Origin: Escherichia coli O157:H7
GTDB taxonomy: Bacteria > Pseudomonadota > Gammaproteobacteria > Enterobacterales > Enterobacteriaceae
DNA length: 64,000 nucleotides
NCBI RefSeq assembly: GCF_013167455.1
Contig: NZ_CP038328.1
Strand: one strand, 5' to 3'
Position numbers: made by a program. Within the stretch, counting starts at the first letter, position 1. Each line of letters begins with the position of its first letter. This document shows positions 6,001 to 9,000 of the stretch, one piece after another.

Positions 6001-9000
6001 TTATTACAGCGTCATTGCTAAGCATTTTAAAGCAGACTCATTTATTCATCCAATAAGGCATGCATATCAATTGCATTGGATGAAAAAAACAGGTGCTTTT
6101 GGTCATGATTATACTGCAAGGTTGGTGCAATCGTTGTCTGATAAAATCAGTACTGCAAGATCTGAAATTGTAGATCATGGACGCACATCTACTATTTCAT
6201 TAGATTTACCAATATTTTCTGCATGGCTAGCAAACGAAACAGGAAATGTCTCTCAAGTTATCAATTCAGCTTTAGAGCTTAGAACACATGATCATTTTCG
6301 TACGTGTCGAGATGTAATCCGAGAGATTCATGTGACCTACGATGAATCGGGGATAAGTGCAGGAAATAAAAAAGTAACAAAATTACTAAGTGATTTAGAT
6401 AAAATATCTGGAGATATTAAACGAAGCTACGGTGTTCCATCAAATCAAGGTATTCAAGGCAGTTTTTTGATAAAATGTATAAATTCATTGACAGGACTCG
6501 TGGGTATTCCAGGTTTGCCTGATAAAGAGTTTGCACTGAGCACTCCTGAATTTATGAAGTCTAAACAACATAAAGCATTTTCTACCGTTTTCAAGGATGT
6601 TACTAACGAACTAACAAGCATTGAACGTTTAGGTGGGCTTCGGGATAAATTAGCGTCGAACTTTACTATTGATGATTCTTATTATACCGAGCCAAAAACA
6701 GAGGATCCGAGATTCCGTTACGTAAGTAGTAATTGGAAGCAGCCAATGTAGATATAGTTAAATGTATAATTATAAGTAATAACAATTTACAGACATTATT
6801 GAATTAAAAATATTGCGTTAGGGTATAATATCTAACGCAATTAGATTGAAAAGTTAATTAAATAGTTAGTCAGAGCTAACTTCTTGTATTGTTAGTTACA
6901 CTGCCTAACCTACAGACAAAAAGCCCCTCAGAATTGTGCTTACGCGCTCAAATTTCACTGCTGGGGATTTTTACGTACATTCAACCCAAAAAGTGACCAA
7001 AAAAGTTCTTACAGAGTTGACGTTACGTTGACGTTGTTTTCTGAAAATGATCCCTTGGTGACTTATTTTATGTATTTGATTTTACGTTTTTTCTTTAATG
7101 TTTTATCACTTTAAACTAACGTCAACTTATCCTTATAGAGCGATTAATTTCTATAAGTACTTTTTCTCAAAATTTGATTTTTACGGATGGAAGTCCATCA
7201 AAGAAACGTCATTTTTTTCTAAGACTTTGATCTTTCGTTAACGGTGTTAGTGGGGACTTCGGTCGTCGAGCGCGATGCGCTTCTGACCGTTTCAATGGAT
7301 AGGTTCGCCTTCTTGCGCCTCTCGCGGCGTTTGCCGCGCTCCGCGCTTTTGGCGGTTTGGCAGGCATATCTCTCTTATTATTGGTCGTTTTTTGCACCGC
7401 CTTGTCACGATCTGTCACTACTAGTAGTAATGGTCATAACCTCCGCTTTCTCTTTTGGCTCTGGATGCTCTCACTCGTGCTCTTCTTAACATCCTTAACA
7501 GTGGGTGGGTTTGTACTTTGTTCGAGTTTATTATCTGTGAGGATAGTAATTCCCTGCGCTCTGTCTCTGCCTCTTTGGTGACCGCTATCACTGATAAATC
7601 CCAATCGTGTTTGCTAATTAACGGTGCTTGGAACGGGGTGATTGGTGATCGATTTATGTCTTGTCGTTTCAATGTACGCTGTATCTGTCGCTTAGCTTTG
7701 TAGTTGTCTTTCCTTGATGCCTGAACGGCTTTTAGTATGCGTCTTACAGCATGAAAGCCAGTGATAGAAAGTGTTTCTTTTTTTATCTCATGCCGCGCCC
7801 AGCCATTCGAATAACCCCAAACGTTGGCATCTGACCAATCATATAGGCTCTTGCTCGCCTCTCTATTAAAGTCATTTAACTTAGTTTCGGGCTTTGCCAT
7901 GTAATCAATCTGTTTACCTATACACTTTGTAGGCTCTGAATATTGCTGACCTTTCAAATCTAGATCCCACTGGGGAGGAACATTTGATGGGATTGCATTG
8001 TTTGCCAGTGTTACCCATTTGCTGACAATTTTGCCAGCTTGCCCATTAATGCTTCTTTCGTTCACCATGATTATTGCGTGTACATGCGGCTCTGACTGGT
8101 GTTGAGCCCACTCCATGACGTAAACCCACTGATTGCCTTGAATGAAAGCGATATTGCATCGCTTGATACCAGAGTTCAGTCGCTGGAATCGCAGGTTTCA
8201 GACCATGAAACGCGCATTAATGCTCTGGAGTATGCCACTACGCGCAAGAAGTCAGAGGTTGTTTACTCTGGCGTATCAGTAACCATCCCGACAGCGCCGA
8301 CCAACCTTGTTAGCCTGCTGAAAACGCTTACGCCGTCATCCGGGACGTTGGCACCATTCTTCGACACCGTTAACAACAAGATGGTTGTGTTCAACGAGAA
8401 CAAAACCTTGTTCTTCAAGCTGTCGATTGTCGGGACGTGGCCCAGCGGAACCGCCAACAGGTCAATGCAGCTAACATTCTCCGGTTCTGTTCCTGACACG
8501 CTAGTAAGCAGTCGCAACTCGGCAACAACAACCGACAACATCCTGTTAGCTACGTTCTTCAGCGTGGATAAAGACGGCTTTCTTGCCACAAATGGCAGCA
8601 CGTTAACCATTCAGTCGAATGGCGCGGCGTTTACTGCCACAACCATCAAAATCATTGCGGAGCAGTGATGGAAATAAAGCTCATCGATAACCCGGTGAAA
8701 CTTGCAGAATTCCTTAACAACCCGGTAAACACGGGGAATATCGTAGACAGTGGAGATAAATACTACATCAAGCCTGATGCGGTATATCTCGGCATCTACG
8801 AAGGATTAGTGCTGGCTGGAGTTCATGAAGTGCGTAACTTCTGGCATAGCGTTGTTGAATGCCATGCGGTGTATGACCCCGGATTCCGTGGCGAATATGC
8901 ACTACAAGGGCATCGATTATTCTGCAAATGGCTTCTCGAAAACTCACCATTCCTTAACAGCATCACCATGGTTCCTGACACCACCAAATACGGACGGGCA

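What the first reader, a model, noticed from the sequence alone, without database searches (positions are those of the whole stretch)
7016..8116. HUH-motif protein next to iteron-like GTTGACGTT repeats: possible remnant of a rolling-circle replicon or relaxase
ORF 7421-8116 (minus) carries HVHAIIMVN (His-hydrophobic-His then Asn, as in Rep/relaxase motifs) and a YMAKPETK tyrosine motif. Its frame remains open upstream of the first ATG and collides with the plus-strand tail-fibre fragment, so it is probably truncated. Downstream in an AT-rich stretch are two tandem GTTGACGTT units, an inverted copy and a CTTATAGAG..TCTATAAG palindrome that could be a nick site or origin. A basic 69-aa ORF follows in another frame.
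Basis: partly seen in the sequence, partly recalled or inferred. Interest (0 to 1): 0.45.

Follow-up and report, generated by a model that had tools for sequence, protein, structure and literature searches.

The report
Truncated rolling-circle Rep gene remnant

Summary
The window is E. coli O157:H7. The finding lies in the 8.5-kb region that Sakai annotates as defective prophage Sp16, at tRNA-Arg argW.

- **The gene.** ORF 7421-8116(-) is real. It is the C-terminal two-thirds of a 350-aa protein found intact in other E. coli, E. albertii and Klebsiella. That protein matches Pfam REP_ORF2-G2P and has an HUH-nuclease fold.
- **The motifs.** Motif I (GxPYxxTLT) and the first ~113 residues are missing.
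- **The truncation.** The break is a clean junction at 8139|8140 with an Sf6/Kapi1-like tail-needle gene.
- **The repeats.** The GTTGACGTT repeats and the palindrome are real. They belong to a ~500-nt non-coding module conserved next to homologues, including plasmid relatives whose Rep is only 25-29% identical.
- **The 69-aa basic ORF** is not a gene.
- **The parent element.** Intact relatives form an ~8-10 kb argW island: integrase, AlpA, small DNA-binding genes, Rep, cis module, variable cargo, serine recombinase. O157 keeps only the right half.
- **Published work** found no circularisation or replication of Sp16.
- **Still open.** Whether the intact enzyme starts replication or conjugative transfer is unresolved.

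Interest is low to moderate.

The parts
7421..8139 (-). 3' two-thirds of an HUH (Rep-class) nuclease gene. The ORF is callable from ATG 8116 (231 aa); PGAP and Sakai call it from 8068 (215 aa, ECs_3236 'phage replication protein'). It keeps E121, the HUH motif (PHVH) and the YxxK tyrosine motif. It lacks motif I and residues 1-113.
   Evidence: It is 97% identical to residues 114-350 of P0001.
8139..8140 (.). Deletion junction between the rep fragment and the 3' part of an Sf6/Kapi1-like tail-needle-knob gene.
   Evidence: Rep homology ends at 8139. Phage homology starts at 8140. PGAP marks the needle gene as a pseudogene missing its N-terminus.
6915..7420 (-). Conserved non-coding cis module downstream of rep. 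It is the putative origin, either a double-strand origin of replication or an oriT.
   Evidence: It is conserved with L006 as far as about 6915, where variable cargo begins. It is found as a single colinear piece in 517 E. coli genomes. Its blocks are shared with Klebsiella islands and plasmids.
7212..7229 (-). 18-mer CAAAGTCTTAGAAAAAAA, the most conserved block of the module and the candidate nick region.
   Evidence: An exact or near-exact copy lies downstream of rep in every family member examined, including plasmids whose Rep is 25-29% identical.
7132..7157 (.). Palindrome CTTATAGA-N10-TCTATAAG. The CTTATA arm is conserved family-wide.
7118..7126 (-). Proximal iteron GTTGACGTT, as read on the rep-sense strand.
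7016..7035 (+). Two tandem iterons GTTGACGTT with an 11-bp period, inverted relative to the proximal copy across an AT-rich spacer.
   Evidence: The same arrangement appears in the Klebsiella island (ACGTCAACGTAACATCAAC) and in E. albertii (CATCAACATAACATCAAC).
7209..7418 (-). The 69-aa 'basic ORF' is not a gene. It is a GC-rich non-coding stretch with short GC hairpins, for example AGCGC-ATC-GCGCT.
   Evidence: Indels and stops break the frame in L006, L007 and L023. It is not annotated in RefSeq.
5339..6751 (+). Island cargo gene, 470 aa, of unknown function.
   Evidence: It has no Pfam, NCBIfam or PADLOC hit, and phrog_13435 has no known function. The same slot holds other genes in other copies.
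4976..5152 (+). Conserved small (58-aa) island gene.
4047..4673 (-). Island serine recombinase (resolvase-like). Three ATTGTCTCAAT-type motifs lie upstream at about 4680-4810.
   Evidence: It is 45% identical to the recombinase of the related plasmids.
3891..3912 (.). Distal copy of the argW 3'-end att core. It marks the outer end of the island and of Sp16.
   Evidence: It matches the Sakai Sp16 boundary.
8140..12280 (.). Remnant of an Sf6/Kapi1-like (P22-like) prophage: needle-knob fragment, DUF2824 gene, DNA-transfer and ejection genes, and intS (11123-12280, -).
12442..12516 (-). tRNA-Arg (CCU) argW, the integration site.

Best explanation
The feature is the decayed right half of a small (~8-10 kb) island that integrates at tRNA-Arg argW.

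**Intact island.** Its gene order is: tyrosine integrase, a 251-aa gene, AlpA-type HTH, a 63-aa gene, a 64-aa DNA-binding gene, a 128-aa gene, a 350-aa HUH Rep-class nuclease, a ~500-nt cis module, a variable cargo slot, a 58-aa gene, a serine recombinase, then the att repeat.

**Proposed mechanism (inferred).**
1. After integrase/AlpA-driven excision, the Rep recognises the TGACGTT-type iterons. The two distal units have an 11-bp period and face a proximal copy across an AT-rich spacer.
2. Rep nicks one strand in the adjacent conserved block (the 18-mer CAAAGTCYTAGAAAAAAA or the CTTATAG hairpin). It uses Tyr191, with E121/H130/H132 holding the metal.
3. The free 3'-OH primes rolling-circle synthesis of the circle.
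4. The serine recombinase resolves multimers at its own ATTGTCTCAAT sites.

**In O157:H7.** One deletion joined codon ~114 of rep to the middle of the tail-needle gene of a neighbouring Sf6/Kapi1-like prophage. It removed the island's integrase, AlpA, the small genes, the rep promoter and motif I. The gene fragment is therefore catalytically dead. The cis module is orphaned and the region is immobile.

**Shown versus inferred.** Homology, motifs, fold, junction, conservation of the cis module and island architecture are shown. The nicking site, iteron binding by Rep and rolling-circle replication are inferred.
For: - **Location.** The window is 100% identical to O157:H7 genomes, between the csc genes and argW. 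This region is Sakai's prophage Sp16.
- **Full-length homologues.** P0001 (350 aa) is 97% identical, and Klebsiella homologues are 55% identical. PGAP names intact copies 'rolling circle replication-associated protein'.
- **Family match.** P0001 matches Pfam REP_ORF2-G2P at E = 1.5e-6.
- **Invariant residues.** G80 and T86 (motif I), E121, P129-H130-x-H132, and Y191-x-x-K194 are invariant in 13 sequences.
- **Junction.** It lies at 8139|8140.
- **Island architecture and att repeats.**
- **Cis module next to homologues.**
- **Recombinase sites.** The recombinase has its own distinct repeated motif and no TGACGT nearby.
- **Expression.** No promoter-like site lies upstream of the fragment.
- **Published tests.** Sp16 replication is scored 'defective', and no circularisation, replication or packaging was detected (PMC2669165).
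- **Recurrent decay.** Independent decay of the same gene is seen elsewhere.
Against: - No nicking or replication has been demonstrated for any family member.
- The free plasmids that carry the same backbone also have a ColE1-like origin: an RNAI-like match at 30-40 bits, and ~70% identity to more than 5,000 Col-type plasmids. They therefore do not need this protein to replicate, which removes the simplest argument for a replication role.
- No conserved hairpin with covariation was found around the 18-mer.
- The window fragment alone matches no Pfam, NCBIfam or PDB sequence.
- The Foldseek PDB hits are individually weak (E > 0.001).
Confidence: 0.6

Rival explanations
1. The sequence facts are the same, but the intact HUH protein is a conjugative mobilisation relaxase and the conserved module is an oriT. 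On this reading the island is an integrative mobilisable element. The small upstream DNA-binding and 128-aa proteins would be relaxosome accessory factors. The O157 copy is still a dead remnant.
For: - The same backbone (68-aa DNA-binding gene, 126-aa gene, HUH protein, module, serine recombinase) sits on 5.3-6.3 kb Klebsiella plasmids.
- Those plasmids already have a ColE1-like origin.
- They carry no recognised relaxase and are typed 'non-mobilizable'.
- In Col-type plasmids the non-replicon module is usually a mob module (general knowledge).
- There is a weak Pfam Relaxase hit at E = 0.02.
- Rep-class proteins acting as relaxases have precedent in the MOBT family (my own knowledge, not tested here).
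Against: - The motif order is Rep-type: HUH comes before the only invariant Tyr, and there is no invariant N-terminal Tyr.
- The third metal ligand looks like Glu (E121), not the third His found in relaxases.
- Nearly all of the listed AFDB neighbours are replication proteins of small circular elements.
- No coupling-protein or T4SS gene lies nearby.
Confidence: 0.27
2. The gene belongs to the P22-like phage itself, as in Sakai's labels 'phage replication protein' and 'prophage Sp16; P22-like phage'. On this reading the whole 8.5 kb is one degraded phage.
For: - Sakai's annotation says so.
- PHROGs contains a family (phrog_30534) built on the truncated protein.
- The gene abuts phage structural genes.
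Against: - tblastn of the intact protein finds nothing in 50,697 phage genomes.
- The gene occurs in islands at argW with no prophage at all (L139, L002).
- The island has its own integrase and att repeats.
- The phage-derived DNA stops exactly at 8140.
Confidence: 0.03
3. The HUH and Tyr motifs are coincidental in an unrelated protein, and the short repeats are chance in AT-rich DNA.
For: - The fragment alone has no Pfam, NCBIfam or PDB sequence hit.
- 2 of 100 shuffles of the window reach four copies of the 9-mer.
Against: - Both motifs fall on invariant columns of the family.
- The Pfam match and the fold evidence support an HUH Rep.
- The repeats cluster within 111 nt and recur next to homologues.
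Confidence: 0.02
4. The repeat region is a site for the neighbouring serine recombinase rather than an origin. It would be either a res site or an invertible switch flanked by the AAAAAGTwCTTAyAGA inverted repeats.
For: - 16-nt inverted repeats that are 88% complementary flank a 134-nt segment (pair I2).
- A serine recombinase is conserved in the element, with a weak match to the Mpi invertase family.
- One plasmid has a perfect palindrome, TTGACGTT-AA-AACGTCAA.
Against: - The recombinase has a different triple motif directly upstream of its own gene, with no TGACGT there.
- The segment has the same orientation in all compared copies and aligns as one colinear piece in 517 genomes.
- Cargo genes separate the module from the recombinase.
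Confidence: 0.04

Closest known systems
Pfam PF23343 REP_ORF2-G2P (replication-associated protein ORF2/G2P domain; by its Pfam name, the rolling-circle initiators of filamentous phages (G2P) and Spiroplasma phage ORF2, plus many small circular plasmids)
   Same: - The intact homologue matches the HMM at E = 1.5e-6.
- Motif order is I, then HUH, then a single Tyr.
- Predicted-structure neighbours are members of this family, with TM-scores of 0.5-0.69 over ~300 residues.
   Different: - It forms a narrow enterobacterial subfamily: only 21 cluster representatives at E <= 0.001 among 1.84 billion.
- It has an extra basic helical C-terminal region of ~110 aa.
- It sits in a tyrosine-integrase island, not in a phage or a minimal plasmid.
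- The window copy lacks most of the part that the HMM matches.
RepB of plasmid pMV158 and its double-strand origin (a nick hairpin plus 11-bp direct repeats placed at a distance)
   Same: - The origin logic is similar: a hairpin and conserved block next to a proximal repeat, plus distal tandem repeats with an 11-bp period.
- The pMV158 origin layout is recalled from my own knowledge.
   Different: - There is no detectable sequence similarity.
- The nick site here is unknown.
- Here there are two distal units, not three, and they are inverted relative to the proximal copy.
- No hexamerisation domain has been shown.
Phage-inducible chromosomal islands and other small satellites (PICI, PICMI)
   Same: - Intact relatives have integrase, then AlpA, then a replication gene with an iteron/AT-rich module just downstream, then a cargo slot.
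- They are small (~8-10 kb).
- They are often in tandem with a P22-like prophage at argW.
   Different: - PICIs and PICMIs use a primase or primase-helicase Rep, not an HUH nuclease (PMC10803314, PMC11773190).
- No packaging or capsid-redirecting genes were found.
- No induction data exist.
- The O157 copy has lost the integrase and AlpA.
Sakai prophage Sp16, gene ECs_3236 (existing annotation)
   Same: It is the same DNA. The gene is already labelled 'phage replication protein'. Sp16 replication is scored defective, and no circularisation, replication or packaging was detected.
   Different: - The published view treats Sp16 as one degraded lambdoid/P22-like phage.
- The evidence here splits it at 8139|8140 into a phage remnant and the right half of a non-phage Rep island.
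- It also identifies the protein as HUH/rolling-circle type.

Membership tests
HUH endonuclease superfamily, Rep class | Motif II: His-hydrophobic-His metal-binding motif on a beta strand. | tested here: met
   PHVH lies at window-encoded residues equivalent to P129-H132. H130 and H132 are invariant in 13 relatives, and the model places a strand at residues 130-137.
HUH endonuclease superfamily, Rep class | Motif III: catalytic Tyr (YxxK) located C-terminal to the HUH motif. | tested here: met
   Y191 and K194 are invariant and are present in the window as DYMAKPETK. There is no invariant Tyr N-terminal to the HUH motif.
HUH endonuclease superfamily, Rep class | Motif I (FTLT-like strand). | tested here: not met
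   Intact relatives have GxPYxxTLT, with G80 and T86 invariant. The window copy starts at residue ~114, so the motif is deleted.
HUH endonuclease superfamily, Rep class | The HUH nuclease fold. | tested here: met
   [not shown]
HUH endonuclease superfamily, Rep class | Site-specific single-strand nicking with a covalent 5'-phosphotyrosine link. | not testable with these tools
   This requires biochemistry.
Pfam PF23343 REP_ORF2-G2P | Significant match to the family HMM. | tested here: inconclusive
   The intact homologue P0001 matches at E = 1.5e-6 over residues 85-146. The window fragment gives no match even at E <= 10, because most of the matched stretch is deleted.
Rolling-circle replicon (plasmid or phage type) | A cis-acting double-strand origin, with a nick site and Rep-binding repeats, linked to rep. 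| tested here: inconclusive
   A conserved module with an 18-mer, a palindrome arm and TGACGTT-type repeats is linked to rep in all members. The nick site and the binding protein are unknown, and no covarying hairpin was found.
Rolling-circle replicon (plasmid or phage type) | Rep plus origin is sufficient for, or needed for, autonomous replication. | tested here: inconclusive
   The only free replicons that carry the module also carry a ColE1-like origin. Sp16 does not replicate (PMC2669165), as expected for a truncated gene.
MOB conjugative relaxases | Catalytic Tyr N-terminal to a three-His motif, and a match to relaxase HMMs. | tested here: not met
   [not shown]
IS200/IS605 TnpA or IS91-type HUH transposase | A small (~130-150 aa) TnpA flanked by subterminal hairpins, or a two-Tyr IS91 transposase with its ends. 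| tested here: not met
   The protein is 350 aa with a single invariant Tyr. It sits inside an integrase-bounded island with tRNA att repeats. TnpA structures are only distant fold neighbours.
Filamentous-phage (inovirus) prophage | gpII-like Rep accompanied by ssDNA-binding, coat and Zot-like assembly genes. | tested here: not met
   No such genes are present in the window or in intact islands. There is no hit in phage genomes.
PICI / PICMI phage satellites | Integrase, AlpA, a primase-type replication module, and helper-phage-induced excision and packaging. | tested here: not met
   Intact relatives have the integrase and AlpA but an HUH Rep instead of a primase or primase-helicase, and no packaging genes. 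Induction cannot be tested here. The window copy lacks the integrase and AlpA.

The most novel reading that the evidence does not exclude
The intact relatives of this remnant may be an unrecognised family of minimalist integrative elements at argW. Their layout is integrase, AlpA, HUH Rep, origin, a single cargo slot and a resolvase. The replication/transfer backbone is shared with ColE1-type Klebsiella plasmids. These elements would ride on co-resident Sf6/Kapi1-like (P22-type, headful-packaging) phages: they would make rolling-circle concatemers on induction and carry anti-phage cargo such as SIR2 or HNH genes in the slot. This would be a satellite or hitcher type that uses an HUH initiator instead of a primase.
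Probability: 0.12. Interest if true: 0.6.

Novelty: new member of a known kind. Interest (0 to 1): 0.28.

Why it matters
- **The O157 locus itself.** It matters little. It is a dead gene fragment in a region already known to be defective and immobile.
- **Correction to the annotation.** Sp16 is not one degraded P22-like phage. It is a deletion fusion of a phage remnant with the cargo-bearing half of a different, non-phage island. The so-called 'phage replication protein' is an HUH rolling-circle-type initiator.
- **By-product.** The analysis gives a first outline of a small, so far unnamed argW island family.
  - It has a conserved cis site and a variable cargo slot.
  - The slot holds SIR2, an HNH nuclease or unknown genes, including the 470-aa O157 gene.
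  - Its backbone relatives sit on untyped 'non-mobilizable' Klebsiella plasmids.
- **Possible uses.** This could help people who catalogue defence islands, satellites and plasmid mobility. I found no paper describing the family in four relevant full-text searches.

Tried and rejected
- **Family searches on the fragment alone** found nothing useful. Pfam, NCBIfam, PADLOC and PDB sequence searches gave no hit, and the only PHROG family has no known function.
- **A profile of 13 relatives against PDB sequences** found nothing.
- **NCBIfam on the intact protein** found nothing.
- **The genome-contig scan with the degenerate 18-mer** was largely wasted. The pattern is too AT-rich, and nearly all 120 loci look like chance matches in unrelated taxa. 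Only E. albertii (L023) was relevant.
- **RNAalifold on the cis-module core** gave no convincing conserved structure: -1.9 kcal/mol and no compensatory pairs.
- **PICMI was considered and rejected.** It uses a primase and sits next to fis in vibrios.
- **EcCIMP1 was considered and rejected.** It sits at a tRNA-Thr gene between proA and yagU, is 20 kb long and uses a primase.
- **Searches for PF23343 and the PGAP product name** in the paper library found nothing relevant.
- **The small Klebsiella plasmids as proof of a replication role** was rejected once a ColE1-like origin was found on them.
- **The 69-aa ORF as a gene** was rejected.
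Full report
**Where the window comes from.** A 1.6-kb query around the finding is 100% identical to many E. coli O157:H7 chromosomes. The region lies between the csc sucrose genes and tRNA-Arg argW/yfdC. In strain Sakai it is annotated as "prophage Sp16; P22-like phage", 8,551 bp. The ORF in question is ECs_3236, "phage replication protein". A 16-nt exact repeat of the 3' end of argW (CCCTGCAGGAATCGAA; the near-identical stretch runs about 21 nt), found at window 12449, recurs at 3897, inside the 3891-3912 span. 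This matches the Sp16 boundaries.

**Check of the observation.**
- The ORF 7421-8116(-) is 231 aa and contains PHVHAIIMVNE and IDYMAKPETK.
- GTTGACGTT occurs at 7016 and 7027 (+), 11 bp apart, and at 7118 (-). That is four copies in the window against 0.65 expected, three of them within 111 nt.
- The palindrome is CTTATAGA (7132-7139) and TCTATAAG (7150-7157).
- GC content is 29% at 7000-7199.
- The 69-aa basic ORF at 7209-7418(-) exists but is not a gene. Indels of 1 nt and 2 nt relative to a 97%-related copy break its frame. Stops appear in three other copies. No RefSeq annotation I retrieved for this region calls it.

**What the protein is.** The fragment alone hits nothing in Pfam, NCBIfam or PDB sequences. 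A homology search found full-length relatives instead.
- P0001 is 350 aa and 97% identical. Klebsiella proteins of ~347 aa are 55% identical. All carry precomputed Pfam PF23343.
- P0001 matches REP_ORF2-G2P at E = 1.5e-6 over residues 85-146. It also gives a weak Relaxase hit at E = 0.02.
- PGAP names intact E. coli copies "rolling circle replication-associated protein".
- An exhaustive search of 1.84 billion cluster representatives found only 21 at E <= 0.001, so this is a narrow subfamily.
- In an alignment of 13 members down to ~20% identity, the invariant residues are G80 and T86 (motif I, GxPYxxTLT), E121, P129-H130-x-H132, W153, Q177, Y191-x-x-K194 and W225.
The order (motif I, HUH, then a single Tyr) is that of Rep-class HUH enzymes, not relaxases.
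- An AlphaFold model built from that alignment has pLDDT 73 overall and 81-95 over most of residues 61-230 (one ten-residue block falls to 62).
- Generic ferredoxin-like folds such as ribosomal protein S6 score similarly, so fold alone would not be decisive.
- Against AFDB50 there are 172 hits at E <= 0.001. The 50 best listed are nearly all ORF2/G2P or "replication protein" entries from small circular elements, with TM-scores up to 0.69.

**The truncation.** DNA homology to the intact gene ends at window 8139, which is codon ~114. From 8140 the + strand is 94-96% identical to the tail-needle-knob, head-morphogenesis and ejection genes of phages Kapi1, Sf6, 720R6 and relatives.
- The window copy lacks residues 1-113, including motif I, the first strand and helix of the fold, and its own promoter region.
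- No promoter-like site lies upstream on the minus strand.
- The same junction is present in 312 complete genomes, including O55:H7 DEC5A.

**The parent element.** In Klebsiella pneumoniae (L002-L005) and in E. coli 600468 (L139), an intact island sits directly at argW with no prophage.
- Its gene order is: tyrosine integrase (428 aa), a ~250-aa gene, AlpA-type HTH, a 63-aa gene, a 64-aa DNA-binding gene, a 128-aa gene, Rep, cargo, a ~60-aa gene, and a serine recombinase. It is bounded by the argW att repeat.
- In E. coli 7/2 and 2015C-4498 the island is in tandem with a P22-like prophage.
- O157 keeps only the distal half: the rep 3' part, the cis module, a 470-aa cargo gene, the 58-aa gene and the recombinase. 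This half is joined to the argW-proximal end of an Sf6/Kapi1-like prophage (intS, ejection genes, needle fragment).
- A single deletion across a tandem array explains the arrangement. This is an inference.
- The same gene decays in other ways elsewhere. There are Rad52::Rep and Int::Rep fusion proteins and an IS-mediated loss.

**The repeats and the origin-like module.** About 500 nt downstream of rep (window ~6915-7420) is conserved with the 97%-related copy. Variable cargo starts beyond it.
- Within the module, the 18-mer CAAAGTCYTAGAAAAAAA (window 7229 to 7212 on the minus strand) recurs downstream of rep in several places. These are other E. coli, E. albertii, Klebsiella islands (with 3 mismatches, and there placed after three cargo genes), and Klebsiella plasmids whose Rep is only 25-29% identical.
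- TGACGTT-type repeats recur nearby in most of these copies:
  - ACGTCAACGTAACATCAAC in the Klebsiella island;
  - CATCAACATAACATCAAC in E. albertii;
  - TTGACGTTAAAACGTCAA or repeated TGACGTTAAAA in two plasmids.
- The module aligns as a single colinear piece in 517 genomes, which gives no sign of inversion.
- The serine recombinase has its own triple ATTGTCTCAAT motif upstream of its gene, with no TGACGT there. The iterons are therefore unlikely to be recombinase sites.
- No covarying hairpin was detected around the 18-mer, so the nick site remains a guess.

**Replication or transfer?** tblastn found no relative in 50,697 phage genomes. It did find distant relatives on 5.3-6.3 kb Klebsiella plasmids typed "non-mobilizable" with no replicon type.
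- These plasmids share the whole backbone. The 68/64-aa DNA-binding proteins are 44% identical, the 126/128-aa proteins 39%, and the serine recombinases 45%.
- This first looked like proof of a plasmid Rep. However, every one of these plasmids has a full-length, sub-threshold RNAI match at 30-40 bits against a gathering score of 47.
- The ~1-kb non-coding region of one of them (L135) is ~70% identical to more than 5,000 Col-type plasmids. They are therefore ColE1-like replicons and do not need this protein to replicate.
- That keeps alive the rival that the HUH protein and module form a mobilisation (relaxase/oriT) unit.
- Several points favour an initiator of rolling-circle synthesis: the Rep-type motif order, the Glu-His-His ligand pattern, the absence of relaxases among structural neighbours, and the replication-protein neighbours in AFDB.
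- I put replication at about 0.6 and mobilisation at about 0.27. The nicking chemistry at the cis site is the same in both cases.

**State in O157.** The fragment lacks motif I and two core secondary-structure elements, and shows no promoter. It is therefore taken to be inactive (inference). Asadulghani et al. 2009 (PMC2669165) scored Sp16 replication as "D" (defective) and excision as absent. They detected no circularisation, replication or packaging of Sp16.

**Comparison with known systems.**
- The protein belongs to the HUH Rep class and, through its intact relatives, to Pfam REP_ORF2-G2P.
- The origin layout most resembles pMV158-type origins: a hairpin or nick region plus 11-bp-period repeats at a distance. 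That comparison rests on my own knowledge.
- The island's layout resembles PICI/PICMI satellites. Those use primase-type replication proteins and differ in site and content, so it is not a member of either.
- I found no paper on this island family.

**Verdict.** The locus is an ordinary, already annotated, inactive remnant. What is modestly new is its reassignment from "P22-like phage replication protein" to an HUH initiator of a separate argW island, together with the conserved cis module and the plasmid relatives. Interest is 0.28.

Noticed in passing
window 5339-6751 (+): The 470-aa cargo protein has no Pfam, NCBIfam or PADLOC match, and phrog_13435 has no known function. The same slot between the cis module and the 58-aa gene holds other genes in other island copies: a SIR2-family protein (E. 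coli 600468), an HNH nuclease matching PADLOC PDC-M68A (Klebsiella), or an 821-aa plus 330-aa pair (E. coli 7/2 and W21). It looks like a defence-cargo hotspot, so this protein is a candidate new defence gene.
   Followed up: partly
window 9812-10948 (+): The ORF annotated 'phage DNA ejection/injection protein' is chimeric. Its C-terminal ~170 aa are hydrophobic and lie in DNA of 27-28% GC (10600-10999). This suggests a second internal deletion junction in Sp16, perhaps with an O-antigen acyltransferase-like gene.
   Followed up: no
window ~4680-4810: Three ATTGTCTCAAT-type motifs (two direct, one inverted) lie upstream of the serine recombinase gene. They are conserved in the Klebsiella island. 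They look like a res-type site.
   Followed up: partly
L008, L009, L134, L135, L136 (Klebsiella plasmids of 5.3-6.3 kb; L136 is a 12.1-kb record): These small plasmids are typed 'non-mobilizable' with no replicon type. They combine a diverged ColE1-like origin (RNAI at 30-40 bits) with the same backbone as the island: DNA-binding gene, 126-aa gene, HUH protein, cis module and serine recombinase. The record NZ_CP141860.1 is a head-to-tail dimer of a 6,066-bp unit.
   Followed up: partly
P0006, P0011; L140 7001-8652: The same rep gene has decayed independently elsewhere. There is a Rad52::Rep C-terminus fusion, an integrase N-terminus::Rep C-terminus fusion, and an IS3-family insertion with loss of everything from the integrase to rep. 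In each case the cargo and the recombinase are kept.
   Followed up: partly
L138 (E. coli 2015C-4498) 1289-12310: Here the island lies between the P22-like prophage's early-left genes (Eag, DUF551, Ea22) and torI. In strain 7/2 it lies after torI. The order of island and prophage att junctions therefore differs between strains, and I have no explanation for this.
   Followed up: no
window 7245-7400 (-): This GC-rich (50%) non-coding stretch directly after the rep stop codon has short perfect GC hairpins, for example AGCGC-ATC-GCGCT. Analogous hairpins (GGCGC-TYC-GCGCC and GGCGGTTTCACCGCC) occupy the same position in the plasmids. Possible roles are a single-strand origin, a terminator or a binding structure.
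   Followed up: partly
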